From positions 1,416 to 65,415 of the forward strand of contig DAOWEB010000162.1 of assembly GCA_030638735.1 (NCBI GenBank): a DNA stretch of 64,000 nucleotides, written 5' to 3'. The translations under genes were made by a program, and so were the position numbers. The number at the start of each line of letters is the position of its first letter. Positions within the stretch are counted from its first letter, which is position 1. This document shows, one piece after another, positions 1,204 through 64,000 of this stretch. Origin of the DNA: Spirochaetaceae bacterium (GTDB lineage Bacteria > Spirochaetota > Spirochaetia > B11-G9). The notes under the pieces are model-generated. The model was given only the letters and a program-made list of their open reading frames with translations. It ran no database searches and was not told the origin of the DNA.

Positions 1204-2699
<1,496 letters not shown>

Positions 2700-11663: not shown

Positions 11664-12734
11664 ATGGATACAATTAAAAATACTGTATGCCTTTGTCTTA
11701 TTGTAAAAAATGAGTCTAAGGTTATAAAGCGAATGATTGATTCATGTCGTGATATAATCGATTCATGGCTTATAATAGATACAGGGAGTGTAGATGATAG
11801 CAAGGAAATAATCTCCCGGGAACTGAAGAATATCCCGGGGGAACTTCTTGAATCTAAATGGGTAGATTTTGCTACTAACAGAACTGAGCTTGTTCAAAAA
11901 GCTAAAAATAAAGCTACTTACTTATTGATATTAGATGCAGATATAACAGTTGTTTTGAATAAATCTTTCGATAAACAATCTTTATCACATCAAGCATATT
12001 ATATACGCCATCTTGGAGAACTTGATTATGCTAAACTTCTTCTTGTTAGAACTGATCTTAATTGGTATTATAAAAATGTTGTACATGAATATATTACTGC
12101 TGATGATTTTAATGAGAAGCCGGTAGTAACAGATATGATGATGATACGGGATTATTATGATGGGTCCAATCAAAGAGATGATGTAAAAACACTTTTGGAA
12201 TCTATAAAGAAAGAACCTACTAATGCCAGAAACTATTTCTATCTAGCTCAGAGTTATTTGAATAATGAAGAATATTCAAAGGCCATTGATAATTATAAGA
12301 ATAGGGTGAATTTAGGTGGTTGGCAGGAAGAGGTTTATTATTCATTGTATCAGATAGGTGTATGTTATTATCATATCAAGGATAATGAGAATGCAAAAAG
12401 ATATCTACTGGAAGCATACAATTATCGTCCAAGCAGATTTGAATCATTGTACCATTTAGGACTTATATATCGAAATGAGAATAAGCATAATCTTGCTTTA
12501 TTATATCTTGAAACAATAGAAAGTATTGGATATCCGGATGATATACTCTTTATACATAGGGACCAATGGGAGTATAAAGTTTATTTTGAATTGGCGATAT
12601 GTTATTATTGGATAGGTGAATATAAGTTATCCTTAAAATATTCAACCCTGGTAGATAATGTAGAGGATGTAACAGAAGAATATAAGGCTTATAATGATAA
12701 GAACATGAAGTATGCCCAGGATAAACTAAAGTAA
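11664..12734 (+). CDS. family-2 glycosyltransferase fused to TPR repeats
   Basis: N-terminal CLCLIVKNESKVIKRMIDSC...WLIIDTGSVDDSKEII and the LILDADI (DxD) motif are typical of GT2. The C-terminal half has TPR-like repeats (YFYLAQSYLNNEEYSKAIDNY..., YSLYQIGVCYYHIKDNENAKRYL..., YHLGLIYRNENKHNLALLYL...). Confidence 0.7.
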   Translation: MDTIKNTVCLCLIVKNESKVIKRMIDSCRDIIDSWLIIDTGSVDDSKEIISRELKNIPGELLESKWVDFATNRTELVQKAKNKATYLLILDADITVVLNKSFDKQSLSHQAYYIRHLGELDYAKLLLVRTDLNWYYKNVVHEYITADDFNEKPVVTDMMMIRDYYDGSNQRDDVKTLLESIKKEPTNARNYFYLAQSYLNNEEYSKAIDNYKNRVNLGGWQEEVYYSLYQIGVCYYHIKDNENAKRYLLEAYNYRPSRFESLYHLGLIYRNENKHNLALLYLETIESIGYPDDILFIHRDQWEYKVYFELAICYYWIGEYKLSLKYSTLVDNVEDVTEEYKAYNDKNMKYAQDKLK

Positions 12735-39200: not shown

Positions 39201-42200
39201 GATGATAGTATTGAGTCTGCAATAAAACTCTTTGGTGAAGTAAGTGTTGATGGTAAGATACCTGATCAGATATCATCAGAATTTCCATTTCTAATCCCGG
39301 AATTCTTCGAAAAAAATATGCATATCTTATCATTCTTTAATAAACTCAGAGAGGTTAATGGTTTAATCGAACAAAAATTTCTTAAATATAGTCCAGAATT
39401 TAATAGTCATGTTGAAAAAGCATTGGCATTATTTTCTAAGATTTCTACTATCAGGGAAGACAAAGGGGAGTTTATGAGAAATGAATTGCTGACCTATCTT
39501 ATTGCAAATGAAATTTATTCTGGTGAGTATTCACTCGAGAGAGATGTTGAGTATCAATATAAAATAGGGAATGATATAATTACTATTACCGGTCCAAAGG
39601 CAATAAACCAGATCTTTATTAAGAAAATCTTTGCATTGACGGATTACATGGGTAAGCAAACAGCTAAAACAGGTAAAGAAATAAATAATCAATTCCTGGA
39701 TCATATCAGTCCTGTTTATAATATCATTACAAAAACATATGAGTTGAGATTTGATGGTGGTTCTCACTTAGATACTGATGATCAACTTGATTTTCAATCA
39801 GCATTTTTGGAACTTAATAAATATGAGGTTAATTATAACAAGAAAACTGGAGCATATACTGTGGTTGAAAGAAAAGGAGAGATTGCAGATAATAATTATA
39901 GTAATTTCCAGAAAGAATTTGTCAGTTATGGAGTAATGAATTGGGGATTACAATTCGGATCTTCTAATTACAGTTCTATATTACCAGGGGAGATGTATGC
40001 TGAAGTAGATGGACTATTTAATGAGATACTTGAAAATGCCACAAGTGCTGCATCAGATATATTTTGGGATAATATACAGGATGATTTTGCTATCCAGTTT
40101 GTGATTAATCATGGTAGGAGATTACAGGATCATTTCTTTTTTACCGGTAAGCCAGTTAAACAAGGTGATATGTATATTGGAAATGACAGGATAGATTTTT
40201 ATGGTGGACGTACAGATTCTTTCTTTTATGATAGATCTTATAGCAATCCTGATGGTAAAGTACATGATAAATATATAGTTACCAGATCTTTTAAAGGTGG
40301 ATATCAAGCATTTATAAGAATGAATGGTGAAACAGCCGATACAGTATACTATCAAAGGATAGGAAGAGTTAATCCATTTAAATTCTATAATACTTCAGAT
40401 GAAGTTCTTACCAAGGGATATATAGTGGAAGATCATTTTGGTGGACTTACCTATAATCATACTGTAAACGATCTTAATAGTAAAATGTTTGAGTATCATG
40501 GTTCAGATCTTAAGGTTGGTGATGATATAACATTTACACAACATCATGACGTTACCAGAGTGGATAAAGCTTATAAAAAAATCACAAAAATTGAAGGTAC
40601 GAATGTAACAGTGAAAGACTCTAAAATAACGGAAGTAAAAAAAGCAGATCTTAAGCCTAAGTCCAGTATTATTAATGAGAAACAATCTGTAAATAAAGCA
40701 AGTGCGGAGCTTATTACTGGTGAGAACGGAAAAGTATATCAAATTTTAGATCGTATTATTAATAGTATCCCTTCCGGAATAAGAAAAAAAGCCCTTGAAA
40801 CATTACGTGATGAGATACTTAAAAGAGATATTAAGATAATCAGACAAGATTTAGACGGATCATGGGCCAGGTTCTATCCTGATGGAACTGTGGCTATTGA
40901 TATAAATAAGATAGTTGAAGAAATTAAAGATGATGTTGTCCAGCATACAGATACTGCTTTTACTCATGAACTGTTTCATTCTGTAACTCTTATTAATTAT
41001 TTGACTGATAAAGATTTTAAAGGAAAAATTGATTCTATTATTAAACAACATTTTACAGTAGATAAAAAAGGGGTTCTTCGTTTTAAAAATGAATCTGATT
41101 TTAATGCTGTCAAGGAAGTATATAAAAGACATGGTTTCATTGTTAAAAAGGAAGATGATATTTATGGACTTACTGATATTATTGAATTTATGTCAGAGAT
41201 ATTTAATGATGGTAAGTTCTCGGAAGCCATGGATGCTATTTATGAATCATCGGAGCAGAAAAGTGCCCTAAGAAGAATTATAGATGCTATTTTAGAATTC
41301 TTTGGATGGAAAAATTCAGAAGAATTTAAGATTTCGGATCATCTCCTTGGTCTTGTAAAGGAACAGGTCCAAAGACCTGATCTTATTAGAGTATCTAAGG
41401 ACCTTTATAAAGATGCAGCTGGTAATTATTACAATTTAAAATCTATAAATTATGTAGATATTGAGGTAGAGACTGAACCGGAAGCCAAGGAAGAGGTTAA
41501 GGATAAAACCCGGGAAAAGATTATGAATACCGCTAATAATATCAAGGAACATTCAGAGAAGGTACATGTAGAAAAGCTTGAAAACGGGTTAGAGGGTAAT
41601 AGTTATATAATTAAAGCTACTGCAGATCGTATTCGTAGAATTACTGATCGAAAAGGTGGGATGATATCTTTTTTCTCAAATAAAGTAATAGATCCTCTAG
41701 TATCCTGGGCACAGAATCTTGCGGATATGAAATGGCAAGACACAGAAAAGGAACATAAGTTTCGAACTGATGAAGGTAAGATGGAGGATTATAATGAATT
41801 CAAAACCCGTAAAGAAAGTGAGCTTAAGTTTGGTGAGATAAAAGGTAAGATCGTACACTTGAATTTTGTGAAGGTGGCTAATAAACTATTCAATCTAAGA
41901 TTAAATAATGATGATATCACCAAAGAGATAAATGACCTGGCATCATTATCTGAAAATCAAATATCCCCATCCAATTATGATTGGGTGTTTGATCCTGCTA
42001 CATTACAGAAGATATTTAAAAATGCTGGTATTAATGTATTAATGGAAGATATCCCGGAAACATTAAAAGATATGGCATACCTTCCAGAACAGATAGTATG
42101 GAATGAGAAACTTGGTTTTGGAGGATCAGTTGATGCATTAATTGGACATGCTGATAATACATGGAGTATTATTGATTGGAAAACAGGTAGGAATTTTGGT

Positions 42201-45197: not shown

Positions 45198-45220
45198 AAA
45201 AAGGCCCGTAGGCCCTTCTA
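45198..45220. terminator. GC hairpin at the convergent junction, best suited as terminator of the - strand block
   Basis: ggcc-cgta-ggcc stem-loop (45203-45214). On the - strand the stem extends to 7 bp (aagggcc/ggccttt with one G.U) and runs into a T7 tract. The hairpin fills the whole 23-nt gap between the two stop codons. Confidence 0.55.
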
Positions 45221-45585: not shown

Positions 45586-45929
45586 TCATCATCAATAGCT
45601 TTTTCTTTCTGATCAAATTCCTCTCTATTTTTAAATATATAGAGGTTTCTATCATTAAAGTATCTGAGTAATTTATTCATATTTGTATGTTCACTGATAA
45701 ATCCATACCAGTATCTATTTAAATAATCAGAGAATACAAGATAATGTAAACCATAACAAGGTTCTAGATTATCTTTTGTTGCAACACGTTTCTTTGGTTT
45801 AAGTCTATAGAAATGTGTAAAGTCTTCAGATAGTTTGAAAGTATCTGGTAGAGAATTAAAATAAGCATTCACATGATCACCATATGGCATCTTTAATCCT
45901 ATTAATGCTATATAAGTTGGTACTTCCAT
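45570..45929 (-). CDS. hypothetical protein
   Basis: 119-aa ATG ORF. TAATG overlap with the HNH gene. Confidence 0.6.
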   Translation of the reverse strand: MEVPTYIALIGLKMPYGDHVNAYFNSLPDTFKLSEDFTHFYRLKPKKRVATKDNLEPCYGLHYLVFSDYLNRYWYGFISEHTNMNKLLRYFNDRNLYIFKNREEFDQKEKAIDDECLII

Positions 45930-46462
45930 TAGAAATTGGTTTTATTATATGTTATTAATTTGTTAATCCATTTAATAAAATCATCATAATCTATTGCTGC
46001 TTTTGCTTTATTACATTGATTACAACACGAAACACAATTTTTTATAGTGTAAGCTTTTAAATTATTCATTCGATCAATACCATTATAAATATATTCACCA
46101 TTTGCTCTATCTGCTTTAATGGACATACTTGGTATTTGTCCACAATAATGACAATTACCTTTTGTAAGAGTTGTAAAATTTTTATCAGATAAATACCAAC
46201 TTATTTTTCTCTTAATTGCTCCTTTTTTATATATACGAAGTATTCTTTTAAATGAAGAAACACCTTTTGGTAATGATCCTGCACAACCGCAACTTTTTAC
46301 ATGCTTACTGGTCAAATGTCCTGATGCTAATAACGTAGTATTACCACATTCACAAATACATTCCCATATGGCATTTCCAGATTTAGTGTATTTACCAGAA
46401 AATTTAACTGCAGTTAGTTTTCCTGATATAATTCCTGTTTGATCTTTTATTTTTCCTTTCAT
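45929..46462 (-). CDS. HNH endonuclease
   Basis: N-terminal WECICECGN...SCGC zinc module and C-terminal CHYCG...NGIDRMNNLKAYTIKNCVSCCNQCNKAK (HNH/HNN core). Confidence 0.75.
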   Translation of the reverse strand: MKGKIKDQTGIISGKLTAVKFSGKYTKSGNAIWECICECGNTTLLASGHLTSKHVKSCGCAGSLPKGVSSFKRILRIYKKGAIKRKISWYLSDKNFTTLTKGNCHYCGQIPSMSIKADRANGEYIYNGIDRMNNLKAYTIKNCVSCCNQCNKAKAAIDYDDFIKWINKLITYNKTNF

Positions 46463-47350: not shown

Positions 47351-47725
47351 CTAAGAAATATTTTTAATTATAAGTCCAGAACTATGTTCAGACCAGTACT
47401 TTTCAAAATGGAATTTCCATATCCCGGAATCTTCTTTTCTAAGAATATCTTGAATAGATTTAAGGATATTATCACCATCAGGTTTTTGCTTATGTGGTTT
47501 ACCTTTCATTATTTCCTTCTTATTTTTAGACCATGACTTAGGCATCTGGATATAACAAACTATATCTATAGCATCACCTAGTACAAAGCTTTGTTTATTA
47601 GCTTCAAGAGTTAAAAGGTCTTTAAATGCCCAATATCTATTAACTACCTTTCGGTTTTTCCACTTATCAGATTGATTCATTCTAGGTTTGGCTACTATAT
47701 CACCACTAAATTCAAACATTAGCAT
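47351..47725 (-). CDS. rusA: RusA-like Holliday junction resolvase
   Basis: KPDGDNILKSIQDIL matches the RusA D-x-D-N-x-x-K-x-x-x-D-x-L catalytic motif. PRMNQSDKW...RYWAFKD is an N-terminal pattern seen in phage RusA homologues. Confidence 0.65.
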   Translation of the reverse strand: MLMFEFSGDIVAKPRMNQSDKWKNRKVVNRYWAFKDLLTLEANKQSFVLGDAIDIVCYIQMPKSWSKNKKEIMKGKPHKQKPDGDNILKSIQDILRKEDSGIWKFHFEKYWSEHSSGLIIKNIS

Positions 47726-53153: not shown

Positions 53154-53324
53154 TCATTTTATAAATGTGTTATATAATTTACGATATGCTTTCATAAGTT
53201 TATCATATGACTCTTGATATACCATTTCATCATCTTGAATATCACTGTCTATATCAAATAAACCTTCGATAGTTCCACCTTTAGCATGAAAGTTATTTGG
53301 ATGTTTGAATTTTATCTTATTCAT
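53154..53324 (-). CDS. short ORF (56 aa) not in the supplied track
   Basis: Hand translation gives MNKIKFKHPNNFHAKGGTIEGLFDIDSDIQDDEMVYQESYDKLMKAYRKLYNTFIK. ATGA overlap with the upstream stop (53321-53324). Confidence 0.45.
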   Translation of the reverse strand: MNKIKFKHPNNFHAKGGTIEGLFDIDSDIQDDEMVYQESYDKLMKAYRKLYNTFIK

Positions 53325-53791
53325 GATTTATCCATTCTTAATTGTTCTTTTTTAATTATTTCAGGTATATGTTTTATCCTTTCTATATAACTATCCCACC
53401 ACTCAATATCTTTACATGACATTGAATGATATTCACCTACATGACATGAATTATGAGATAGAAACCAGAAAGTAATATCTAGAAGAGATTCATCATCACG
53501 GCCCATACCATGATGAAGACTAGGTTCATTATATATCTGCTTACCACAAAAAATACAAAAGAGTCTTCCTTTTTTATCACGCTGTCCTTCAATAAATAAT
53601 TTACGTTTAGGTGTATATTGCTTATTTTGTTTAGCACATTTAGGAGTATTCTTAGGTATTTTGTAGGATTTTTTTGGAGTTTTGGGATCAGATTTTTTAG
53701 CAAGATATTTAGAACGATAATGAAAGGAACAATAGCCCCGGGCAAACAAGGGCCATGTACATCCTTCCACAGTACATATCTTTTTACTCAT
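53321..53791 (-). CDS. HNH-type endonuclease (NinG-like layout)
   Basis: CTVEGC...GYCSFHY zinc module and CIFCGK...LHHGMGR...SHNSCHVGEYH. The track start is TTG 53845; ATG 53791 overlaps the upstream stop. Confidence 0.55.
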   Translation of the reverse strand: MSKKICTVEGCTWPLFARGYCSFHYRSKYLAKKSDPKTPKKSYKIPKNTPKCAKQNKQYTPKRKLFIEGQRDKKGRLFCIFCGKQIYNEPSLHHGMGRDDESLLDITFWFLSHNSCHVGEYHSMSCKDIEWWDSYIERIKHIPEIIKKEQLRMDKS

Positions 53792-54167
53792 GGAATATAT
53801 CAGGATCAATGGGTTCACCAAATTCTTCAACTTCCTTTTGAGCAAACATTTCTGTAATAGGATCTGTTGATTTCATTACAATCATATTGTCATTAATATA
53901 GATATAGTTATCCTGGACATCATCTTTGGAAGAGAATCCTTTGTTAAGCCATAACATATTAGCTGTAACACGATCATATTTTTCTGTTATAATATCCATA
54001 ATCATTATAGCAGTATTTCGTGATACTATAGGATGTTTTATCTTTTCAATATTATCCCAATCAATATTAATAGCAAGTTTGTATAATTCTACAAGAGCAT
54101 CAGGAAGGTTTTCCGAATCGTTTACAATATTTGCAACGATAAATTTATCAATCTTAATTTTTCTCAT
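53784..54167 (-). CDS. hypothetical protein
   Basis: 127-aa ATG ORF. Confidence 0.6.
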   Translation of the reverse strand: MRKIKIDKFIVANIVNDSENLPDALVELYKLAINIDWDNIEKIKHPIVSRNTAIMIMDIITEKYDRVTANMLWLNKGFSSKDDVQDNYIYINDNMIVMKSTDPITEMFAQKEVEEFGEPIDPDIFHE

Positions 54168-54427: not shown

Positions 54428-55306
54428 TTAATTTAGGTTATAACGACTCATTAGATATTCACTCATTGCACTATTGTTAGAGAGTAACAGAGGAAAATCA
54501 GTAAGACCGGGTTTGTATAATTGTGTAGCAAAATTGTATATATCCCATGCAGAAAAATTCTTATCAAATTCCTTTTGTTTTTCAAGCATATAGCTTTTGG
54601 TAAAAGTTCCAATCTGACTTTGATTTAAAGGATTGATTATTTCTTTTGGAAATTCTTTTGAATTTTCTCTCCGGATCCTTTTAGCTGTCATATCACCAAC
54701 AAGTTCCATTACTTCATGATGTGGAATAATAGTTGTTTGTAGTGATAGAATAGTTTCAAGTTCCTTTTCACGAATCTCTTTAAAATTACCCAACCATTCA
54801 CCAAGGACCTCAATCATTCTTTCTGGAGTAGGCATTTTATTATCATGTGAATATGTACTCATGAATTTATCAACTCCCATGATACATTGATTCTTACAAA
54901 TCTTCACATTTGGTCCAAATGCTAACTGGAATCCCATTTGATTATAACTTAAAGCTACAGCAGTATTGGTAAAATCATTTTCTAAATTGGAAATGATAAT
55001 ACGAGCGAATATTCTACGCATCAGAAAACTTTGAAGAGATCCTTCACCAAATTCTTCTCTTTGTTTTTCAATGACAGTTACACCGGGTCTGGTTTTATCT
55101 CTATTTTGTGCAGAATAAATTGGATCAAGAGTAGATTTCAGTTTGGCTTTATCAACTGCTTCCATTGCACGTTCTATAAAATCAAAATGATACATTCCCA
55201 TTACAGGCTTACCATCATAACCTTCTTCTTTAACAGTTGTTTTTAGTTCTTCCAGGTTCAATTCCTGAATCTGGTTATCTTTGTAATTAAGTGTTCTCGT
55301 TTTCAT
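54428..55306 (-). CDS. DUF932/DUF3871-like phage/plasmid protein
   Basis: TNTAVALSYNQMGFQLAFGPNVKICKNQCIMG resembles the recalled DUF932 core (NSxDgs.a...G..v.vC.Ng.v.g). Confidence 0.4.
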   Translation of the reverse strand: MKTRTLNYKDNQIQELNLEELKTTVKEEGYDGKPVMGMYHFDFIERAMEAVDKAKLKSTLDPIYSAQNRDKTRPGVTVIEKQREEFGEGSLQSFLMRRIFARIIISNLENDFTNTAVALSYNQMGFQLAFGPNVKICKNQCIMGVDKFMSTYSHDNKMPTPERMIEVLGEWLGNFKEIREKELETILSLQTTIIPHHEVMELVGDMTAKRIRRENSKEFPKEIINPLNQSQIGTFTKSYMLEKQKEFDKNFSAWDIYNFATQLYKPGLTDFPLLLSNNSAMSEYLMSRYNLN

Positions 55307-55319
55307 TATTTATTATAAT

Positions 55320-56237
55320 TTATATTGTTTCAATCTTAATTTTATCAGGGCAATCTTTCCAGGGACATTTCTTACATAAATCATACATAGGGTTAGTAGG
55401 CCAATCTTCTGTTTCAGCAATATCAAGGATACTGATAGTTTTACGGATACTTTCATCAAGTTCTGCTTTTTTAGTAGCATCCCATTTTACCTGAATGAAT
55501 TTATCTTCAAGGACTTGTCCTTTATAATTGAATATCCATAGTAAGAAGCGTATCCTGTTGTTATCAATAAGATTTTTTATGGAATCAGTTATAATAGCAT
55601 TAATCTGAGGATTTAATTCATGATCCAGATTACGAACGATGTAATGGTACATTTTTGCTTGAATAAGATCCAGATACTCGGGTTTACCGTAGCAAAATTC
55701 ACCATAATCGTTATGTATATCAGCAGTAAGTTTCAGATCTATTATTGCAGCTTCCAATTCATCATCAAGGAGTACAGTAGTAGGAAAGACATCAAATTCA
55801 CCTTTAAGAAGTACATTTTTATCTTTTTCCCAATAAGCATATGCAGTTACCTGAACATTTTCATTAGTAATTATGATTTGCTTATTTTTAACTAAAGCTT
55901 TAAATCTTTCTACCTGATCATCAGTACGAATATGATCAAGATATCTTTCTCCTTCTAATAATGGACGACCTTCATCTTTACGTACAGCATTTTCCTGTTC
56001 CATTTTTATAGTAAGTTTCTTTCGGGGTAAATCTTTTTGTTTATCCCCTTTAGCACTTTTACCTAAAGCCTGAGTTTCAAAATACTTTCCATAAAGCATT
56101 GGTCTGGAAGTTTCTTCTTTTATTAGTTTGGTAATTGTTGTAAGATATACTCTTCTCATACATGTATCTCGTTCCTCACCATTATGTAAAAGTTTTTTGA
56201 TAATAGATTGACTGATAGGGAATTTTATATAATCCAT
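55320..56237 (-). CDS. Cas4/RecB-like PD-(D/E)xK exonuclease with probable Fe-S cysteines
   Basis: GEFDVFP (D), AAIIDLKLT (D-x-K) and IQAKMYHYIV (QxxxY), with an N-terminal Cys (DTCMRR) plus C-terminal CKKCPWKDC. Confidence 0.7.
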   Translation of the reverse strand: MDYIKFPISQSIIKKLLHNGEERDTCMRRVYLTTITKLIKEETSRPMLYGKYFETQALGKSAKGDKQKDLPRKKLTIKMEQENAVRKDEGRPLLEGERYLDHIRTDDQVERFKALVKNKQIIITNENVQVTAYAYWEKDKNVLLKGEFDVFPTTVLLDDELEAAIIDLKLTADIHNDYGEFCYGKPEYLDLIQAKMYHYIVRNLDHELNPQINAIITDSIKNLIDNNRIRFLLWIFNYKGQVLEDKFIQVKWDATKKAELDESIRKTISILDIAETEDWPTNPMYDLCKKCPWKDCPDKIKIETI

Positions 56238-56827: not shown

Positions 56828-58366
56828 TTAAAATAAAGGTTTTAATTCAGAATCTTCCCCGGAAGGTTTATCTTTTTTATCATCCTGACCGGGTTCTTCA
56901 GTATCTTGCTCATTGGCAAGTTTTGAGGGAATATTACTAAGATCTTTTTTTAATACTTGTCCTTTTTCCATTGGATTTATTAAAGGATCATTAGATGTAT
57001 ATTCATTAATAGTATTAGATTTCTTTTTTCCTTTTTGAACTACTTTATCAACTTTCTTTTTTAAGTCTTCAAGAGCTATACTTTCATAACCGGTTACAAC
57101 CATTTCAGATCCATCTCTTATCACTTCATCAACAAACATTACTTTGTTGTTTTTAATAGCAATATCATTGAGTATTTCCAGTTTTTCATGATCCAGTATA
57201 CTTGCATCACCAATAATTTGTACGGGTCCCGGGTTTATTTTGGCCAGGATATTAGCCAGAATAATAACAGCATCAGATTCACATACCTGATTTTCTTTAA
57301 ATACAAAGCCATCTATTACCAGATAATCATCTTCAAATGCTATATTTTCAACTGGTAGATCACTATTAGTTACAATTTTCTGTTTTGCGGTTCTGATTTT
57401 ATTAATCTTTTCATCTAAGTTTTCACTTATTTCAGTATGACTAATAATATCATTACCAAATTTCTCTTTTGCTTCTTTAAGTCCAGAATGTTTTTGAATC
57501 TTTTCAATGATCTTAGTACCATCAGCAATTTTGGTATCTAATTTTTCAATAGTAATCTCACTTAACTTATCAAGTTTAAGATTTGTTTGAGCAAGAGCAG
57601 TCTCTCTTGCTAATTTACGTTCTTTGAGATTTTTTAATTTAGCTTCAAGTTCAATCAGTTCTAAATTAACATTTTGAATATCTAATATATTCGCTAATTT
57701 ATATTTTACTTGATCTCTTGCTTCATTATAAGTCTTAATGAGCTTTTTAGCTTCCTCCTCCCGGTCAAGATATTTTTGAATATCAGGATCTATTATTATA
57801 CTATTGAAATTTATCTGTGCAGTTTCAAGAGATTTATTGGATTCAGTTCTTTCTGAATAATGATGTCCTTCCTGCAAATCCAGATCATTGAATTTATTTC
57901 TATCAATTTCCGGAAGAAGTTTTAAAATGATATCTCTTTGCTTGCGTCTTCCCTCAGCTGAATTGCTGAGAGCAAAAAACTGGTTAACATCAATAGGAGT
58001 ATAATTAAATAGGTTACGAATCTCTGTTACAGATGATATTTTGGTACCATCTTCACGGATAGCTATAAACTTACCTTTCTTGGTATCTGTAAATTCATGT
58101 CTCACTGTGATCATACTACCATCAGAAGCGGGTATAGTGGCTTCATAGTAGCCTTCTGATTCACCTGTTGATACTTTCTTAGGTGTATCATCACTTGCAG
58201 TCTGTAAGCTTGTTAAAGCCTTTAAAAAGGATGTTTTGCCTGTCTTGTTTGGTCCTTGTACAAAATAGATAAATGATCCATTAAGTACAAAACTATTATC
58301 TTTCAATAATTTGTAGTTGTAAAAATGGATAGGAATTTCAATTTCCTGTGCTTTCATTTTTGTCAT
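56828..58366 (-). CDS. AAA/SMC-like (RecF/SbcC-type) ATPase
   Basis: Walker A VQGPNKTGKTSFLKAL near the N-terminus, a long central coiled coil, MFVDEV (Walker B-like) near the C-terminus, and an acidic tail. Confidence 0.7.
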   Translation of the reverse strand: MTKMKAQEIEIPIHFYNYKLLKDNSFVLNGSFIYFVQGPNKTGKTSFLKALTSLQTASDDTPKKVSTGESEGYYEATIPASDGSMITVRHEFTDTKKGKFIAIREDGTKISSVTEIRNLFNYTPIDVNQFFALSNSAEGRRKQRDIILKLLPEIDRNKFNDLDLQEGHHYSERTESNKSLETAQINFNSIIIDPDIQKYLDREEEAKKLIKTYNEARDQVKYKLANILDIQNVNLELIELEAKLKNLKERKLARETALAQTNLKLDKLSEITIEKLDTKIADGTKIIEKIQKHSGLKEAKEKFGNDIISHTEISENLDEKINKIRTAKQKIVTNSDLPVENIAFEDDYLVIDGFVFKENQVCESDAVIILANILAKINPGPVQIIGDASILDHEKLEILNDIAIKNNKVMFVDEVIRDGSEMVVTGYESIALEDLKKKVDKVVQKGKKKSNTINEYTSNDPLINPMEKGQVLKKDLSNIPSKLANEQDTEEPGQDDKKDKPSGEDSELKPLF

Positions 58367-58745
58367 TTTCTTGTTTTTTAATATTTCTATTTATAAAATC
58401 ATTTACATATTCGGGATAAAATTCAGCACCCCAATCAGCTACTTGTTGAGTATCATAATCTATATCTTCTCCTTCTATTTTAGCGATACGGAATTTACGT
58501 TCTCCTTTATCATTTTCAGTACAGGCAATACCGATAGAATCTTTACCAGTAATCCACATTATATCAATTATTTTCATTTTATTTTCATTTTGGACAATTA
58601 CCCCATTTATATTTATGAAATAAATAGTTTCATTGTTCTTTCTAATATTCCAGTCATCCTTACTATTATCTCTTATAGACTGTGCTGTTTTCTCGCTCAT
58701 TGGTAATCTTTTACCATCAAGCATAAAATAATTTTCTGTTTTCAT
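58338..58745 (-). CDS. hypothetical protein
   Basis: 135-aa ATG ORF overlapping the ATPase start by 29 nt. Confidence 0.6.
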   Translation of the reverse strand: MKTENYFMLDGKRLPMSEKTAQSIRDNSKDDWNIRKNNETIYFININGVIVQNENKMKIIDIMWITGKDSIGIACTENDKGERKFRIAKIEGEDIDYDTQQVADWGAEFYPEYVNDFINRNIKKQENDKNESTGN

Positions 58746-58749
58746 TTTA

Positions 58750-60543
58750 TTATATTATTGGTTTATCATCTATTTCAATTATTGGTTCAAAAGTATTATA
58801 ACCAAGATTAGCTTTATATCTGATAATATTATTATCATCTGCATCATCACCATCTCTGTTTTTTGCACTTTCAACAATAAATAGTTCATTAATATGAGAC
58901 ATAAGATTTAAATTATTACCATATAAATAATAAGATCTGCTGTTTTGTTTAGGGCTATAATCTTCAGTCCATTTTTTATTTACTATAAATGAGTAAATAC
59001 ACATTTTCTCAGATTTATATTGAGATAATCTACCACGATTCTTCTCTTCCATATGAATGAAATACTGATTATACTTATTTAGTATATATCCTGCTCGTAT
59101 ATCAGAGCCATCAGATAGTTTATCAATTGTTACAGCATATTTTAAAGCATCCCATGTAGCTTTGAGTAAATCCGGAATATCTTTAGTATTTTTATCCCCT
59201 TCTGGGTTAATAGGCCAGAATTCTTTTTCAAAACGAGAGATATTAAATTTCCCTTCTTTAATTTTAAAACTGAATACTTTTGCTTTATTCCTTTCTTCAG
59301 ATATTAGATCTTTATATCTTCTAGGCAAGTTGATCATTATAGCTTGCTGAACATAATCAAGAATACGTGTAGATCCTTTGATATATTCCTTCCTGGGTCT
59401 ATAACCTTCTTCAAGATTAAATTTTTTAGCACTTTCTTTGGTAATATGATGAAGAAGAATTACTGATATGTTATATATATCTGATATTTCTTTTAATTTA
59501 CCGGCTACATAATCATCTTTATCAATACCTTTTAAAAATGAATCAGTAGTTATAAGACCTAAATTATCTACTATAAGAATGAGTTTGGATGTTTTATATT
59601 TTTCACGTAATAACCTGGTTTTTCTAGTAATAGTACGCATGGAAGAAACATGATCTACAAATTGAATATTATATTCATCAAAATTATCAATGATATATGA
59701 TATTTTATCCAGTTGTTCCTGGGAAAGAGTATAATTTATACTTTGAAGTTGCTTTGTAGTTAGTTTAATTTCCATGGAAATAAATGAACGAATAATTTGT
59801 TCTTTAGTATCTTCCATTGAAAACCATAATACACGTATATCTTTATCTTGATTGATTATTTTCCTGATGATATAGGTAACATATTTTGTTTTACCATGGC
59901 CTTCTGCTCCAGCAATGAGTAGTATTTGTCTTTCCCTAAGTGATATTTTGGAATCTATTTCCGGATCACCGGTTACTATGAATGAACTTATAATACCTTT
60001 GGCTTTATTAGATATATCGATAAGGGTAGTTCGTAAAGCATCTTTAAAAGAAGCTTTTTCATTTCCTTCGATATCAAAATTATCAAGTATTTCATTTTCA
60101 GCCCATTCTGCCACTTCAGAAGGATCTTCTTCATTGTAGGCTTTTTTTGCCATCTCATGACCAATTCGAATTAATTCACGTAGTAAATATTTATCTGTGA
60201 TAACTCTACAATGAAATTCTAGGTGATTGGCATTGGCTACTTTAGCAGTAAGTGATATTAGGTAAGTTGCACCACCTATATCGTCTAATAAATTTGTTAT
60301 TTTTAATTGATCTGTTACGGTTAAGATATCTATTGATCCTCCTTTTTCATATAGAATTTGAATAGCATCCATTATTTTTTGGTTACAATCTTTATAAAAT
60401 ATGTATTTGTTAAAATAATGGGATACTTTGAGATAAGCCGTACTCTCCAGTAAGATAGCACCTAAAATGGCTTCTTCAATTTCTAATGCTTGAGGAGGAA
60501 TCTTACCATAATCGGGGTCTATGGTTCTTCCTTTGTTATTCAT
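58750..60543 (-). CDS. dnaB: DnaB-type replicative helicase with a large C-terminal-domain insertion
   Basis: N-terminal PPQALEIEEAILGAILLES (compare DnaB PPHSIEAEQSVLGGL), Walker A GAEGHGKT and a late AKNRDG motif. About 150 extra residues lie between the H4-like region and AKNRDG. Confidence 0.85.
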   Translation of the reverse strand: MNNKGRTIDPDYGKIPPQALEIEEAILGAILLESTAYLKVSHYFNKYIFYKDCNQKIMDAIQILYEKGGSIDILTVTDQLKITNLLDDIGGATYLISLTAKVANANHLEFHCRVITDKYLLRELIRIGHEMAKKAYNEEDPSEVAEWAENEILDNFDIEGNEKASFKDALRTTLIDISNKAKGIISSFIVTGDPEIDSKISLRERQILLIAGAEGHGKTKYVTYIIRKIINQDKDIRVLWFSMEDTKEQIIRSFISMEIKLTTKQLQSINYTLSQEQLDKISYIIDNFDEYNIQFVDHVSSMRTITRKTRLLREKYKTSKLILIVDNLGLITTDSFLKGIDKDDYVAGKLKEISDIYNISVILLHHITKESAKKFNLEEGYRPRKEYIKGSTRILDYVQQAIMINLPRRYKDLISEERNKAKVFSFKIKEGKFNISRFEKEFWPINPEGDKNTKDIPDLLKATWDALKYAVTIDKLSDGSDIRAGYILNKYNQYFIHMEEKNRGRLSQYKSEKMCIYSFIVNKKWTEDYSPKQNSRSYYLYGNNLNLMSHINELFIVESAKNRDGDDADDNNIIRYKANLGYNTFEPIIEIDDKPII

Positions 60544-60562
60544 ATTAATTTAAGTATAAATT

Positions 60563-60943
60563 TTAAAGTGTAAGTATCATTTGTCGAATTAATATATGAT
60601 CATTTGATTTAAGTATATCCAGGGCATGAAGCATTGTTTGTTTATTTCTTGTTACTATTCTTTTTTTCATAAATTCAGTAAATTCTGTAGTAGTTAATTC
60701 CTGAACTTTATGATTTATCATATAAAGTCGTAATGCTCTTAACCAGATATATGTATGTGATATCTTATTTATTTCACTGATAATTGCTGATTTAATATCT
60801 GAGAAATCTGATTCAAGTGAAATAGACCGGGGAAGAGGATGTTTAACATTTTTTGTTTTGTCTCTGTCTAACCAAGTTCGCACCGGGTTATTATCTTCCT
60901 TATATAGTGAAGGAGGATAGTCTTGTGCTTTAAGTGTATCCAT
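60563..60943 (-). CDS. hypothetical protein (replication-module accessory protein)
   Basis: 126-aa ATG ORF between the DnaA-like gene and the DnaB-like gene. Confidence 0.6.
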   Translation of the reverse strand: MDTLKAQDYPPSLYKEDNNPVRTWLDRDKTKNVKHPLPRSISLESDFSDIKSAIISEINKISHTYIWLRALRLYMINHKVQELTTTEFTEFMKKRIVTRNKQTMLHALDILKSNDHILIRQMILTL

Positions 60944-60982
60944 GTCATTGTATTTATCCGAAATTTATAAAAAATATTGATA

Positions 60983-61432
60983 TTAAGCATCTTCCATGAA
61001 TGAGATAATTAATTTATCCATTTTTAATGTATCCCATATATTTAGATAATCAATCCATAAATTTTGAGTTCTAAATTCTGCATTATTTACTACTTTAATA
61101 CCATGGAACACTGTAGCATGATTTTTATCAAATAATTTACCAATTTTTTTATAGGATAATTTAGGGAATATTTTTCTAGCTATTTTATAATATATCTGTC
61201 GTGCATAAACATATTCTCTATCTCTAAGTTCTTTTTTAGCTAAAAATTTACGCTTATCAAGATTATAATACTTTGTAATTTTTAATATTATTTTATTTCT
61301 GATAATTGCTGGATCAATAGGAATTTTAGAATCGATTAATTGTTTTTCGATACTAGCAATTTCTATTTGTATTGATTCACTCATTGATTGAAATTTTTTC
61401 AATGATGAACATAAATCTTCATTATCTATCAT
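60983..61432 (-). CDS. DnaA C-terminal (domain IV, DnaA-box-binding HTH) domain protein
   Basis: ITKYYNLDKRKFLAKKELRDREYVYARQIYYKIARKIFPKLSYKKIGKLFDKNHATVFHGIKVV aligns with the DnaA domain IV pattern (...YY.i....l.s..R.r....aRQ.amyl.......S...IG..Fg.rdHtTVlHa..ki). The track start is TTG 61456, trimmed here to ATG 61432. Confidence 0.8.
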   Translation of the reverse strand: MIDNEDLCSSLKKFQSMSESIQIEIASIEKQLIDSKIPIDPAIIRNKIILKITKYYNLDKRKFLAKKELRDREYVYARQIYYKIARKIFPKLSYKKIGKLFDKNHATVFHGIKVVNNAEFRTQNLWIDYLNIWDTLKMDKLIISFMEDA

Positions 61433-61691
61433 CGCTTGCAGGTAATGGTAAATCAAGAGCTAATAAATTAAGATGATCTATTGGAACTTGATATTTTTCC
61501 CAGTATTCTATCATTTTACTATTTGGTATATTATCCATATTGGAGCTTTTCCAAAATATCAATTCTTTATCTTCAAGCATAGTATAATCAAATACCTGTA
61601 TAAAATATTCTCCAAGAGGGTAGTCAAATCCATAGGCAACTTCTAATTTTTTACCATTTATTTTTGGAGTTATTGTGTATCTACAATTCAT
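61422..61691 (-). CDS. hypothetical protein
   Basis: 89-aa ATG ORF. Confidence 0.55.
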   Translation of the reverse strand: MNCRYTITPKINGKKLEVAYGFDYPLGEYFIQVFDYTMLEDKELIFWKSSNMDNIPNSKMIEYWEKYQVPIDHLNLLALDLPLPASDDR

Positions 61692-61704
61692 ATTCTATTC
61701 CTCC

Positions 61705-61932
61705 TTAGTTAGTTTTAATAGGTTTCAAATCAAATGCTACTAAATCACCATGTATATCTGATGTTATACCTATGAATCTTTTGCAGTATTTACACTTTTT
61801 ACGAATTATTATTTCATTTTGTTCGTCATATAAATCCTGCCATTCATTGGGAACTTTTTGTTCGCAATAAGGGCAAATAGCATTATTTTCACATACATGA
61901 AGTATTCCATTTTTTATTGGTATTGCTTTCAT
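61705..61932 (-). CDS. zinc-ribbon protein
   Basis: CPYC...CKYCKR pairs in 75 aa. Confidence 0.5.
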   Translation of the reverse strand: MKAIPIKNGILHVCENNAICPYCEQKVPNEWQDLYDEQNEIIIRKKCKYCKRFIGITSDIHGDLVAFDLKPIKTN

Positions 61933-61943
61933 CTCATTTAGTT

Positions 61944-62240
61944 TTATTGATTAGTTTTTAAGTTAAAACTGGTTTCACTATTTGGTCGCATAGGATTGAA
62001 TTGTACGGTATATCCTAAATCTTTCATTTCTTGAATATGCTCAATCTCAACACCAATAAACCCCTCTATTTGATTATGACCACAACAACATCCTGTTGTA
62101 ATTATTTCATCTGCCCAAAGTAAAGTGATTTCATCAAATAGACATCTATCAATACAGATGAAGCTGTTAGACCACCAAGCCAATACCATTACTTGATTAC
62201 CATAGTTTCCTATCTGAGTATGTTTATTGCAGTTGCACAT
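61944..62240 (-). CDS. Cys-rich hypothetical protein
   Basis: 98 aa with CNCN, CIDRC and TTGCCCGH motifs. Confidence 0.55.
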   Translation of the reverse strand: MCNCNKHTQIGNYGNQVMVLAWWSNSFICIDRCLFDEITLLWADEIITTGCCCGHNQIEGFIGVEIEHIQEMKDLGYTVQFNPMRPNSETSFNLKTNQ

Positions 62241-62497
62241 TATGTTTGTTTTAATTTTATCATTACTTCTTCTGTATATAAATATTCAATCCCACTAGAC
62301 CAATAATGATCTGAAATTATATTATTTATTTCTTTAAAAACAGATTCAAGAAAAGCATCTAAGTTTTGATCACAATTATCTGCCTTCTTATTATACAAGG
62401 CCTCTCCTTGATTTCCAACATATATCGTATAACAGTTGTCTTTAGGATGAACGCTTACTTTTGCAGTAGCCATGCAATATACTTTGATTTCTTTCAT
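62240..62497 (-). CDS. hypothetical protein
   Basis: 85-aa ATG ORF. TAATG coupling. Confidence 0.55.
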   Translation of the reverse strand: MKEIKVYCMATAKVSVHPKDNCYTIYVGNQGEALYNKKADNCDQNLDAFLESVFKEINNIISDHYWSSGIEYLYTEEVMIKLKQT

Positions 62498-62498
62498 A

Positions 62499-62885
62499 TC
62501 ACTTTAGTTTTTGTTCAAAATAAAATATTACAGGTTTATCTATTTCATAAATAAGACCATATCTTTTTGCAATCTTATACTGAGTTGAATCTCTATTAAG
62601 AGAAATTATGAAGTTTTGTATTAATAATCGGAATCCTTCCAAAGACAATGAATGTTTATTGATATTGCAGCTTGGACAGGATGGCATTTGATTGTCTATA
62701 TGCAATCTTTCAGGATATTTGCATGTTCCATCGTGTACAAATTTTGTTTTTTCTTTATTGTACTTGAAATTCCTACAAACAGGGAAAAGTTCATCTACGT
62801 GCCATCCTTTTTGTAATTCACATCCACAATATGCACAATGACCATCATATTTGTCATAGACTATTTTTCTGTCTGATTTTTTCAT
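62499..62885 (-). CDS. HNH endonuclease
   Basis: GHCAYCG...WHVDELFP...NQMPSCPSCNINKH (HNH core). The track start is TTG 62906; ATG 62885 forms an ATGA overlap with the upstream stop. Confidence 0.7.
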   Translation of the reverse strand: MKKSDRKIVYDKYDGHCAYCGCELQKGWHVDELFPVCRNFKYNKEKTKFVHDGTCKYPERLHIDNQMPSCPSCNINKHSLSLEGFRLLIQNFIISLNRDSTQYKIAKRYGLIYEIDKPVIFYFEQKLK

Positions 62886-63448
62886 TTTAGTTTTTGTTTT
62901 AGCCAATTAATTGCATCTTGAAAACCACTCTTATATCCAAATCTATAATGTCCGCTATAAAATTCAATTTCGCATTCAAGATGTGTTTTTACTTCCCCAT
63001 CACTCGGCAACTGTATAGGGTTGCATTGTTGAACGTATTGTTCAATAATATCAGTCCTATGAAATTGTTTCCATTTCTTATTAATATCAATATAGATAGA
63101 GATTATTTCTCTATTTGGAGATATGTAAATACATTTTTTATTAGGAAACTCTTCCGCTGTCTGCATTGGTTCATTATACCTTTTATGGATAGATGTATCT
63201 CTACCCAATATACATTCATCCTGCATTGGTTTGCTTTCGGGTTGTTCTATTTCTTCAAGCCAATAGTTAATGTCGCTAGCAAAAGACCACTCCTCTCCGT
63301 CTTTTTCAACAAGCCATTTGCCATTTTGATATATAACTATACCACTCCCATTATCTTTTGTTATAACAAATTTCCATGAATTATCTTCTGAGGGTTTTTC
63401 CTTTGGCAATCTTTTACTTGCCTTAACTGTTCTGTATGTCTTTTCCAT
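62882..63448 (-). CDS. hypothetical protein
   Basis: 188-aa ATG ORF. Confidence 0.65.
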   Translation of the reverse strand: MEKTYRTVKASKRLPKEKPSEDNSWKFVITKDNGSGIVIYQNGKWLVEKDGEEWSFASDINYWLEEIEQPESKPMQDECILGRDTSIHKRYNEPMQTAEEFPNKKCIYISPNREIISIYIDINKKWKQFHRTDIIEQYVQQCNPIQLPSDGEVKTHLECEIEFYSGHYRFGYKSGFQDAINWLKQKLK

Positions 63449-63450
63449 GA

Positions 63451-63663
63451 TTATTCCTCCTCACTATCAATTTTACCAAAAGGTAATAAAATTGCTACTA
63501 TAAATACTCCAAATTCAAGCATCCCTATAATAAAACGTCCAAGTGGACTCCAGCTATCAGGGTTTAGATCCCAGGCTATTAAAGAACCTGTTAAGTATAA
63601 TACTACCATAAGCATTAAGCCTATTGGTATCATTGTTATGGCAAGTTTCTTACTAAATTTCAT
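63451..63663 (-). CDS. small two-pass membrane protein
   Basis: 70 aa with two hydrophobic helices (AITMIPIGLMLMVVLYLTGSLIAW and FIIGMLEFGVFIVAILLPF). Confidence 0.55.
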   Translation of the reverse strand: MKFSKKLAITMIPIGLMLMVVLYLTGSLIAWDLNPDSWSPLGRFIIGMLEFGVFIVAILLPFGKIDSEEE

Positions 63664-63666
63664 AAT

Positions 63667-64000
63667 TTAAGATTTTAAACAATATTCATCAAGAAAAAAA
63701 TCAATTGTATTCCAAGTAATACCTATAGATGCATCATGTTTATCAATCATTCTTTCTAAAGCATATTGGAATTTAGCAGGATCATATTTATTTAAGTATT
63801 TATGAGCTTCATCCATTGTAATTTCATAAAATTCAATATTAGGGTCTTTCATTTGAACATCTTCATTTCCTAATGCTTGAAACAAAAAATCATCAACAGA
63901 CCATTGAACAGATGTTTCTTCAATGATTTTAATTTGATCAATGATATAATCAAGATAAGCATACAGATCATCATTTTTTGGTTCAATTTTATCTCTAAAT
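63667..64000 (-). CDS. hypothetical protein, 5' end beyond the window
   Basis: The track entry starts at TTG 63885, but the same frame stays open with no stop and no ATG up to the window edge at 64000. The gene is therefore probably truncated by the window. Confidence 0.55.
   Translation of the reverse strand, partial: FRDKIEPKNDDLYAYLDYIIDQIKIIEETSVQWSVDDFLFQALGNEDVQMKDPNIEFYEITMDEAHKYLNKYDPAKFQYALERMIDKHDASIGITWNTIDFFLDEYCLKS

What the first reader, a model, noticed from the sequence alone, without database searches (positions are those of the whole stretch)
60983..61432. Phage-encoded DnaA domain-IV-only protein at the head of the replication module
The 149-aa protein aligns along its C-terminal ~70 aa with the DnaA-box-binding HTH domain of bacterial DnaA (ARQIYYKIARK...SYKKIGKLFDKNHATVFHGIKVV). 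It lacks the AAA+ and oligomerisation domains. It lies two genes upstream of the DnaB-type helicase. It could recognise DnaA-box-like sites at the phage origin and recruit the helicase. It could also compete with host DnaA at oriC or DnaA-regulated promoters, a host-takeover mechanism.
Basis: partly seen in the sequence, partly recalled or inferred. Interest (0 to 1): 0.6.

Follow-up and report, generated by a model that had tools for sequence, protein, structure and literature searches.

The report
Phage stand-alone DnaA DNA-binding domain protein
A crAss-like phage encodes a small protein that is only the DNA-binding end of the bacterial replication starter DnaA, placed just upstream of the phage's own helicase; the protein is real, but such proteins are already listed in many phages and none has been tested.

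Summary
ORF 60983-61432 (minus strand, 149 aa) matches Pfam Bac_DnaA_C (55.8 bits, cut-off 31.5). Its model (pLDDT 94) overlays solved DnaA domain IV (TM 0.83-0.85, rmsd 1.6-1.8 Å). It has no AAA+ or domain I. It lies two genes upstream of a DnaB-type helicase, in a complete 99.4-kb crAss-like phage genome.

The kind is not new:
- Hundreds of 90-250-aa stand-alone homologues exist in viral contigs.
- UniProt/BFVD names them "DnaA C-terminal".
- Two isolated phages annotate one.
- A 2021 paper reports the gene in most HTVC010P-type pelagiphages.
- No experimental characterisation turned up.

New here: the order DnaA-IV, variable gene(s), DnaB recurs in all three large relatives of this phage, and five reference crAss-like phages lack the domain.

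Canonical DnaA boxes sit at chance level and unclustered in this phage, in its relatives, and in 1.1 Mb around 160 homologues. I found no iterons.

My readings:
- Site-specific DNA binder serving phage replication, with a non-canonical site: about 0.4.
- Transcription regulator: about 0.25.
- Competitor for host DnaA boxes: about 0.18.

Verdict: new member of a known, untested kind. Interest is moderate.

The parts
60983..61432 (-). Stand-alone DnaA domain IV protein, 149 aa (alternative TTG start at 61456 gives 157 aa). It has an N-terminal long helix (residues 4-34) and a DnaA-type HTH domain (about residues 45-137).
   Evidence: Pfam PF08299 at 55.8 bits. AF2 pLDDT 94.3. Foldseek hits 3PVP/1J1V at TM 0.83-0.85. 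Family profile against 1J1V, E=7.5e-24.
61422..61691 (-). Upstream 89-aa ORF whose stop overlaps the ATG of the DnaA-IV ORF by 11 nt, so the two may be translationally coupled. Function unknown.
   Evidence: No Pfam or PHROG hit.
60563..60943 (-). 126-aa ORFan between DnaA-IV and DnaB. It sits where a helicase loader or adaptor would sit, but there is no evidence for that role.
   Evidence: Only sub-threshold Pfam hits. No PHROG or NCBIfam hit. No homologue among 5.8 billion proteins other than itself. Replaced by unrelated genes in relatives.
58750..60543 (-). DnaB-type replicative helicase, 597 aa, with a C-terminal extension of about 160 aa beyond the DnaB_C domain.
   Evidence: Pfam DnaB E=5.2e-23 and DnaB_C E=2.4e-16. 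phrog_19. 45-59% identical in relatives, next to their DnaA-IV genes.
56828..58366 (-). 512-aa protein of phrog_1499 with a weak AAA_27 N-terminus. It is syntenic with DnaB in relatives.
55320..56237 (-). PD-(D/E)XK (Cas4-like) nuclease, 305 aa: the recombination part of the same operon.
   Evidence: Pfam PDDEXK_1 at 22.7 bits against a cut-off of 22. Syntenic at 60% identity in L094.
54428..55306 (-). DUF3871 protein, 292 aa, in the same operon.
   Evidence: Pfam DUF3871 E=1.7e-7. Syntenic at 63% identity in L094.
47351..47725 (-). RusA Holliday-junction resolvase at the distal end of the leftward DNA-metabolism block.
   Evidence: Pfam RusA E=3e-12.

Best explanation
The gene encodes a sequence-specific DNA-binding protein made of DnaA domain IV plus one N-terminal helix. 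It belongs to the replication-recombination operon of a crAss-like phage in which I found no PolA or PolB. The operon order is DnaA-IV, a small variable gene, DnaB helicase, an ATPase, a PD-(D/E)XK nuclease and, further on, RusA. I think it most likely binds a phage-specific site that is not a canonical DnaA box and marks where the phage DnaB helicase is brought in, directly or through the variable neighbouring gene. Host enzymes would then do the synthesis. This resembles the origin-binding 'replisome organiser' that precedes the loader and helicase genes in phages such as SPP1. Shown here: domain identity, fold, retention of most DNA-contact residues, operon membership and conserved synteny with DnaB. 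Inferred: DNA binding itself, the target site, any contact with DnaB, and the role in initiation.
For: Domain and fold are established. DNA-contact positions are conserved across 51 unbiased homologues: R399 equivalent in 46/51, R407 in 51/51, H434 in 50/51, T436 in 48/51, H439 in 42/51. The roles of R399 and helix 434-451 come from PMC5742627. All three large relatives of this phage carry a stand-alone PF08299 ORF immediately upstream of DnaB. In G001 the order is DnaA-IV 150 aa, a 159-aa ORF, then DnaB 590 aa, with overlapping stops and starts. G007 and G008, which are near-identical contigs and so count as one lineage, have DnaA-IV 193 aa, a 314-aa ORF plus small ORFs, then DnaB 612 aa. DnaB is 45-59% identical and the intervening genes are unrelated. 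Across other phages the gene sits in DNA-metabolism modules. PD-(D/E)XK nuclease DUF3799 lies within 3 genes in 21 of 33 phage groups; VRR-NUC, HTH_36 and DnaB_C also occur. A DnaB or primase-helicase gene lies within about 5 kb in 42 of 160 loci. The recognition helix differs among the three crAss-like lineages (NHATVFH, DHSTVLH, DHVTALY), as expected if each co-evolves with its own site. No PolA or PolB was found on the phage contig. A published suggestion assigns the same role to the pelagiphage homologues (PMC8477408).
Against: I found no candidate binding-site array. DnaA boxes show no enrichment or clustering. There are no iterons within 3 kb of the gene. A genome-wide scan for 9-mer clusters found only coding repeats, and intergenic k-mers gave nothing. 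In DnaA, helicase recruitment and DNA melting need domains I and III, which are absent, and nothing shows that the N-terminal helix or the 126-aa ORFan replaces them. Across very different phages the reading head is fairly uniform ([KR][DN]HATV.H), which argues for a common target rather than phage-specific origins. Many homologues lie at the end of the early operon just before the terminase (12 of 33 groups), a position also typical of late-gene regulators. An earlier scan note on a related case concluded it was a gene-control cassette.
Confidence: 0.4

Rival explanations
1. It is a phage transcription regulator. The stand-alone HTH domain binds one or a few operator-like sites on phage DNA and switches phage genes, for example the transition from early or middle to late expression. 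DnaA itself also acts as a transcription factor through domain IV.
For: The protein is a DNA-binding domain with no enzymatic or loading domain. In 12 of 33 phage groups the homologue lies within 3 genes upstream of the large terminase, at the end of the early or DNA-metabolism operon. Single operators would escape the repeat and cluster scans that came out empty. An earlier scan note reached this reading for a Bacteroidota phage homologue flanked by site arrays (e1-3646521; unchecked).
Against: In this phage and its three large relatives the gene is tied to DnaB, not to a strand switch, a promoter region or the structural genes. I found no shared non-coding motif near 67 distinct homologous genes; the only enriched 8-mers encode the HATV motif itself.
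Confidence: 0.25
2. It is a host-takeover factor. The domain occupies host DnaA boxes at oriC, the dnaA promoter and other DnaA-regulated sites. Because it cannot oligomerise or melt DNA, it blocks host initiation or deregulates DnaA-controlled genes.
For: The phage genome, its relatives and 1.1 Mb around homologues carry no excess of DnaA boxes, so a canonical-box binder would find its targets in the host. The base-reading residues R399, H434 and H439 are conserved across phages of very different hosts, with D433 kept as D or N; this fits a universal target. Isolated domain IV of E. coli DnaA is sufficient for box binding (established knowledge; PDB 1J1V is that complex).
Against: T435 is Ala here and in 40 of 51 homologues, and E. 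coli T435M is defective in box binding (PMC5742627). The position equivalent to E. coli P423 is not conserved in the family. Within this one phage lineage the recognition helix varies at positions 433, 435, 437 and 439, which is unexpected for a fixed host target. Conserved adjacency to the phage helicase is not predicted by this model. The protein is only 28% identical to domain IV of the DnaA in the MAG that holds the contig, so it is not a recent copy. The host itself is uncertain.
Confidence: 0.18
3. It is a decaying or functionless remnant of a captured dnaA fragment.
For: None specific. The protein has no close homologue; the best match is 35-39% identical.
Against: The frame is intact and the model is confident and compact. 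Contact residues are conserved family-wide. The syntenic position is conserved in diverged relatives. Hundreds of similar stand-alone ORFs exist.
Confidence: 0.03

Closest known systems
DnaA domain IV (Pfam PF08299 Bac_DnaA_C; E. coli DnaA 374-467, PDB 1J1V; M. tuberculosis DnaA DNA-binding domain, PDB 3PVP)
   Same: The fold is the same over the whole 94-residue domain (TM 0.83-0.85, rmsd 1.6-1.8 Å). The basic-loop Arg is kept (R70 = R399), as are R78/Q79 = R407/Q408 and the recognition-helix residues H105, T107, V108 and H110 = H434, T436, V437 and H439.
   Different: There is no domain I, II or III, so the protein cannot bind ATP, oligomerise like DnaA, melt DNA or recruit helicase in the DnaA way. 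T435 is Ala, D433 is Asn and P423 is Lys. It is 28% identical to domain IV of the DnaA in the MAG. No DnaA-box arrays lie in cis.
Annotated stand-alone phage DnaA C-terminal-domain proteins: Olleya phage Harreka_1 gp24 ('DnaA protein', 145 aa), Pelagibacter phage Greip gp42 ('Bac_DnaA_C domain-containing protein', 173 aa), the PF08299 gene of HTVC010P-type pelagiphages (PMC8477408), and UniProt/BFVD entries named 'Chromosomal replication initiator, DnaA C-terminal'
   Same: Small size (about 90-250 aa) and a single domain IV with variable short extensions. They sit in the early DNA-metabolism region of tailed phages. None that I found has been characterised experimentally.
   Different: Sequence identity is 24-45% and confined to the domain. 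Here the host genome is a roughly 99-kb crAss-like phage and the gene is tied to a DnaB helicase. Most described cases are 30-45-kb marine phages where it follows a PD-(D/E)XK exonuclease and often precedes the terminase. Five reference Steigviridae crAss-like phages lack the domain.
Bacillus phage SPP1 replication genes 38-39-40 (origin-binding G38P, loader G39P, DnaB-type helicase G40P), recalled from the literature and not retrieved here
   Same: The gene order is the same: a small DNA-binding protein, a small protein of about 126 aa, then a DnaB-type helicase, in a phage that would rely on the host polymerase.
   Different: No sequence relationship was detected. The ORFan matches no Pfam family above threshold at E up to 1 and has no homologues. 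No origin repeats lie in or near the first gene. This is an analogy of layout only.

Membership tests
DnaA domain IV superfamily (PF08299 Bac_DnaA_C) | Profile match above the curated gathering score | tested here: met
   55.8 bits against a cut-off of 31.5, E=4.8e-15, profile positions 3-68 of 69. Six-frame search of the contig gives 57 bits.
DnaA domain IV superfamily (PF08299 Bac_DnaA_C) | Domain IV fold (helix bundle with HTH and basic loop) | tested here: met
   AF2 pLDDT 94.3. Foldseek hits 3PVP and 1J1V at target TM 0.83-0.85 and rmsd 1.6-1.8 Å over 94 columns.
DnaA domain IV superfamily (PF08299 Bac_DnaA_C) | DNA-contact residues: basic-loop Arg (R399), R407, and recognition helix D433-H434-T435-T436-V437-x-H439 | tested here: inconclusive
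   R70, R78, H105, T107, V108 and H110 are kept. D433 is N, T435 is A and P423 is K. E. coli T435M is binding-defective. The effect of Ala is unknown.
DnaA domain IV superfamily (PF08299 Bac_DnaA_C) | Specific binding to the 9-bp DnaA box TTATNCACA | not testable with these tools
   Only indirect evidence: boxes are neither enriched nor clustered in the phage, its relatives or homologous loci.
Chromosomal replication initiator DnaA (TIGR00362 equivalog) | AAA+ ATPase domain III and N-terminal domain I | tested here: not met
   The protein is 149 aa. TIGR00362 matches only positions 322-432 of 437, at 50 bits against a cut-off of 343.9. There is no Bac_DnaA (PF00308) hit.
Stand-alone phage DnaA-IV proteins (annotated class) | Short ORF (about 90-250 aa) made of one domain IV, encoded on a phage genome | tested here: met
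   149 aa on a complete crAss-like phage contig. The top 150 HMMER hits are all 87-252 aa. The 80 IMG/VR ORFs are 118-246 aa. BFVD entries are 92-290 aa.
Stand-alone phage DnaA-IV proteins (annotated class) | Location in the early replication/recombination gene block | tested here: met
   It lies upstream of DnaB, an ATPase, a PD-(D/E)XK nuclease and RusA on one strand. Contexts are comparable in other phages.
Phage origin-binding replisome organisers (functional class, e.g. lambda O, SPP1 G38P) | Cognate repeated binding sites (iterons) forming an origin, often in or next to the gene | tested here: not met
   There are no direct or inverted repeat arrays within 58000-64000. The genome-wide scan found none either.
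Phage origin-binding replisome organisers (functional class, e.g. lambda O, SPP1 G38P) | Physical recruitment of a loader or helicase | not testable with these tools
   Only gene adjacency to DnaB is available, conserved in three relatives.

The most novel reading that the evidence does not exclude
The phage uses a bare DnaA DNA-binding domain to sit on the host's DnaA boxes at oriC and the dnaA promoter. That would silence or deregulate host initiation while the phage's own DnaB-based replication proceeds from a site that needs no DnaA. To my knowledge, known anti-initiation factors bind DnaA itself, so this would be the first to mask the boxes. It would apply to a class present in hundreds of marine and other phages.
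Probability: 0.17. Interest if true: 0.7.

Novelty: new member of a known kind. Interest (0 to 1): 0.35.

Why it matters
Stand-alone DnaA domain IV proteins are among the more common small DNA-binding proteins of uncultured tailed phages. More than 480 IMG/VR contigs and more than 310 metagenome contigs matched in capped searches. Their role is still a guess: published annotation offers only a suggestion, and I found no experimental test. This case ties the gene to a phage DnaB helicase by conserved synteny in a polymerase-less crAss-like lineage. It also shows that, for this HATV-type subfamily, canonical DnaA-box arrays are absent in cis. That narrows the options to a non-canonical phage site or a host target. 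A single DAP-seq or EMSA experiment on any member would decide between these and would annotate hundreds of genes.

Tried and rejected
Searches that found no close relative:
- tblastn of the protein against 50,697 phage records gave no match.
- The word-index search of 5.8 billion proteins found only the protein itself.
- phmmer against PDB sequences found nothing. The profile search later succeeded.
- Loci of the closest full-length homologues, P0003 and P0004, were not found in IMG/VR.

Structure:
- The single-sequence AF2 model was too poor to use, pLDDT 47.

Binding-site searches, all negative:
- Perfect and 1-2-mismatch DnaA boxes in the phage, in relatives and around 160 homologous genes.
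- Repeats near the gene and in the gene-poor region at contig positions 70-77 kb.
- The genome-wide 9-mer cluster scan found only collagen-like coding repeats and chance groups.
- Intergenic k-mer enrichment gave only AT-rich words.
- 8-mers enriched around 67 distinct homologous genes were only the codons of the HATV motif.

Host origin:
- I could not locate oriC in the MAG by box clusters.
- The MAG is a Spirochaetia bin and may not be the host.

Other ideas rejected:
- The 126-aa neighbour as a known helicase loader: no family match and no homologues.
- RepL as a displaced initiator in reference crAss-like phages: no RepL was found anywhere.
- The phi14:2 replication module has a different composition and is not comparable.

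Full report
**What is there**

The minus-strand ORF 60983-61432 starts with ATG and encodes 149 aa. An in-frame TTG at 61456 would add 8 residues; the public gene call (157 aa) uses it.

Pfam Bac_DnaA_C matches residues 47-114 at E=4.8e-15 and 55.8 bits, against a curated cut-off of 31.5. The NCBIfam full-length DnaA models align only with their C-terminal ends. TIGR00362 covers positions 322-432 of 437 and scores 50 bits against a cut-off of 343.9. So this is domain IV, possibly with the helix that precedes it, and not a DnaA.

A single-sequence model was useless (pLDDT 47). With an alignment of 51 homologues the model reaches pLDDT 94.3 and pTM 0.79. Its best PDB matches are the DnaA DNA-binding domains 3PVP and 1J1V, with target-normalised TM 0.83-0.85 and rmsd 1.6-1.8 Å over 94 columns. 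Full-length DnaA structures follow. A profile of the family hits 1J1V at E=7.5e-24.

**Residue map**

I used the HMMER alignment to 1J1V (chain position 1 = E. coli residue 374). On that numbering:
- R70 = R399, R78/Q79 = R407/Q408, K95 = P423.
- N104 = D433, H105 = H434, A106 = T435, T107 = T436, H110 = H439.

According to the review PMC5742627, R399 reads the TTA part of the box in the minor groove. Helix 434-451 reads TnCACA in the major groove. R399A and T435M are binding-defective.

Among 51 homologues chosen only by HMMER rank:

| E. coli position | Residue in the 51 homologues |
|---|---|
| R399 | R in 46 |
| R407 | R in 51 |
| H434 | H in 50 |
| T436 | T in 48 |
| H439 | H in 42 |
| D433 | D in 36, N in 9 |
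| T435 | A in 40 (T in only 4) |
| P423 | not conserved |

DNA binding is therefore very probably retained. Whether the site is still a canonical DnaA box is open.

**The genome**

The window is positions 1416-65415 of a 99,404-bp contig with a 141-bp terminal direct repeat and 33% GC. That makes it a complete phage genome.
- It encodes a crAss-type major capsid protein (Pfam Crass_capsid, E=2.5e-123), a crAss tail-ring protein, a large terminase and a portal.
- The capsid protein is only about 37% identical to Steigviridae isolates.
- No PolA or PolB is detectable on the contig.
- The contig was binned into a 4.3-Mb MAG whose DnaA is closest to Spirochaetia MAGs.
- No spacer-like matches link the contig to the rest of the bin, and it is the second-strongest tetranucleotide outlier of 73 large contigs. 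The host is therefore uncertain.

**Gene context**

The gene lies in a long leftward block (window about 45.6-68.9 kb). In order:
- An 89-aa ORF whose stop overlaps the start of the DnaA-IV ORF.
- The DnaA-IV gene.
- A 126-aa ORFan.
- DnaB helicase (597 aa).
- A 135-aa ORF.
- A phrog_1499 ATPase-like protein.
- A 194-aa ORF.
- A PD-(D/E)XK nuclease.
- A DUF3871 protein.
- Further down, a methyltransferase, HNH endonucleases and RusA.

"Head of the replication module" is fair in one sense: this is the first recognisable replication gene. About twenty small unknown ORFs precede it in the same block.

**How common the kind is**

- A full HMMER search of 1.84 billion representative proteins found 544 hits at E<=1e-3. 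The best 150 are all 87-252 aa, and the best are 35-39% identical.
- A capped scan of IMG/VR confirmed 481 viral contigs. The 80 kept all carry stand-alone ORFs of 118-246 aa in low-GC DNA.
- A capped metagenome scan added 310 more, many from marine surveys.
- BFVD holds dozens of viral UniProt entries of similar size named "Chromosomal replication initiator, DnaA C-terminal".
- Two isolates annotate one: Olleya phage Harreka_1 gp24 ("DnaA protein") and Pelagibacter phage Greip gp42.
- Earlier notes of this scan describe the same kind in other phages.

The kind is known and annotated. I found no experimental test of it.

**What this case adds**

Five reference crAss-like phages (phi14:2, DAC15, a Kolpuevirus, cr111_1, crAss001) have no PF08299 match. 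All three large relatives of this phage in IMG/VR do, always just upstream of DnaB:
- G001 (86 kb; capsid 78% and DnaB 45% identical): DnaA-IV 150 aa, a 159-aa ORF, then DnaB 590 aa, with overlapping stops and starts.
- G007 and G008 (DnaB 59% identical): DnaA-IV 193 aa, a 314-aa ORF and small ORFs, then DnaB 612 aa. These two contigs are near-identical at the locus, so they count as one lineage.

The smaller related contigs are 17-44% complete and uninformative. The intervening genes are unrelated to each other. The DnaA-IV proteins themselves align only over the HTH (36-45% identity). Their extensions differ: an N-terminal helix here and in G001, and a 100-aa C-terminal tail in G007. The pairing with DnaB is thus conserved while everything else around it has turned over.

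In other phages the gene also sits among DNA-metabolism genes:
- A DUF3799 PD-(D/E)XK nuclease lies within three genes in 21 of 33 phage groups.
- A large terminase lies within three genes in 12 of those groups.
- VRR-NUC, HTH_36 and DnaB_C also occur.
- A DnaB or primase-helicase gene lies within about 5 kb in 42 of 160 loci. This is a lower bound, because many loci are short.

**The origin test**

The result is negative.
- The phage has 8 TTATNCACA sites, close to a rough composition-based estimate of about 7.6. All are scattered inside coding regions.
- Allowing one or two mismatches gives counts and maximum clusters within the range of shuffles.
- The relatives show scattered boxes too.
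- In 1.12 Mb around 160 homologous genes there are 62 boxes, against 58 for a reversed control and about 81 in shuffles. No locus has three within 300 bp.
- I found no iterons near the gene, none in the gene-poor region that holds the tRNA genes, none genome-wide and no enriched intergenic word.
- Around 67 distinct homologous genes, the only enriched 8-mers are the codons of the HATV motif.

**Mechanism**

Three readings remain.

(a) A site-specific binder serving phage replication, working like a replisome organiser upstream of the helicase. I prefer this one, at about 0.4.
- For: conserved DnaB adjacency, the general location in replication-recombination modules, and variation of the recognition helix among the three crAss-like lineages (NHATVFH, DHSTVLH, DHVTALY). 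That variation is what co-evolution with private sites would produce.
- Against: no site array was found, and the protein lacks the DnaA parts that melt DNA and recruit helicase.

(b) A transcription regulator, at about 0.25.
- For: it is a bare HTH domain, and many homologues lie just before the packaging genes.
- Against: in this lineage the gene is linked to DnaB rather than to promoters.

(c) A competitor for host DnaA boxes, at about 0.18.
- For: boxes are absent in cis, and the reading head is fairly uniform across phages of very different hosts.
- Against: the family-wide T435A change, the variable P423 position, the variation within this lineage, and the unexplained synteny with the helicase.

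A functionless remnant is very unlikely (about 0.03).

**Verdict**

The protein is real and correctly identified, and it is linked to the replication module. It is a new member of an already annotated, untested kind. Interest is moderate, and it lies mainly in the class-wide open question of what these proteins bind.

Noticed in passing
Same phage contig, just beyond the window end: L003:3644-4062 (-) = contig C200:65643-66061 (would be window 64228-64646): A roughly 600-bp ORF-free, GC-richer stretch matches Rfam RF04321 (permuted, two-piece tmRNA) at 58 bits against a gathering score of 47, E=1.8e-9, over the full model. ARAGORN did not call it. This may be a phage-encoded permuted tmRNA in a crAss-like phage.
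   Followed up: partly
L003:10772-11880 (-) = contig C200:72771-73879: A cluster of five tRNA genes (Leu-taa, Gln-ttg, His-gtg, Pro-tgg, Met-cat). It is flanked by two copies (90% identical) of a 92-nt element at L003:10203-10294 and 11989-12080.
   Followed up: no
whole contig C200 / MAG G000: The crAss-like phage genome was binned into a MAG whose DnaA is 80-89% identical to those of Spirochaetia MAGs, whereas cultured crAss-like phages infect Bacteroidota. There are no spacer-like matches to the rest of the bin, and the contig is a tetranucleotide outlier. The binning may be spurious, or the host range may be unusual.
   Followed up: partly
whole contig C200: This 99-kb crAss-like phage has no detectable PolA or PolB, unlike the annotated 'putative DNA polymerase' genes of phi14:2. 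Its replication block is DnaB plus recombination nucleases. Primase was not searched for.
   Followed up: partly
window 27261-45197 (+) and 3941-10159 (+): Two giant ORFs of 5978 aa and 2072 aa lie in the rightward late block. I did not analyse them.
   Followed up: no
window 1971-2699 (+): A 242-aa ORF contains at least 12 copies of a 9-nt unit (AGGTGCAAC / ACAGGTGCA). It looks like a collagen-like Gly-X-Y repeat protein, but I did not translate or check it.
   Followed up: no
window 58750-60543 (-): The DnaB helicase carries a C-terminal extension of about 160 aa beyond the DnaB_C domain. The extension is conserved in the relatives, where alignments run to residue 585 of 597.
   Followed up: no
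window 62499-62906, 53321-53845, 45929-46462 (all -): At least three HNH endonuclease genes are scattered through the leftward block. One of them (62499-62906) is 72% identical to a copy in relative G001.
   Followed up: no
L003:4354-5115 (-) = contig C200:66353-67114: An AntA/KilAC-type antirepressor-like protein (253 aa) lies next to the tmRNA-like region.
   Followed up: no
window 45198-45215: A GC-rich hairpin (GGCCCGTAGGGCC) with A/T-rich flanks lies where the rightward and leftward blocks converge. It is probably a bidirectional terminator.
   Followed up: no
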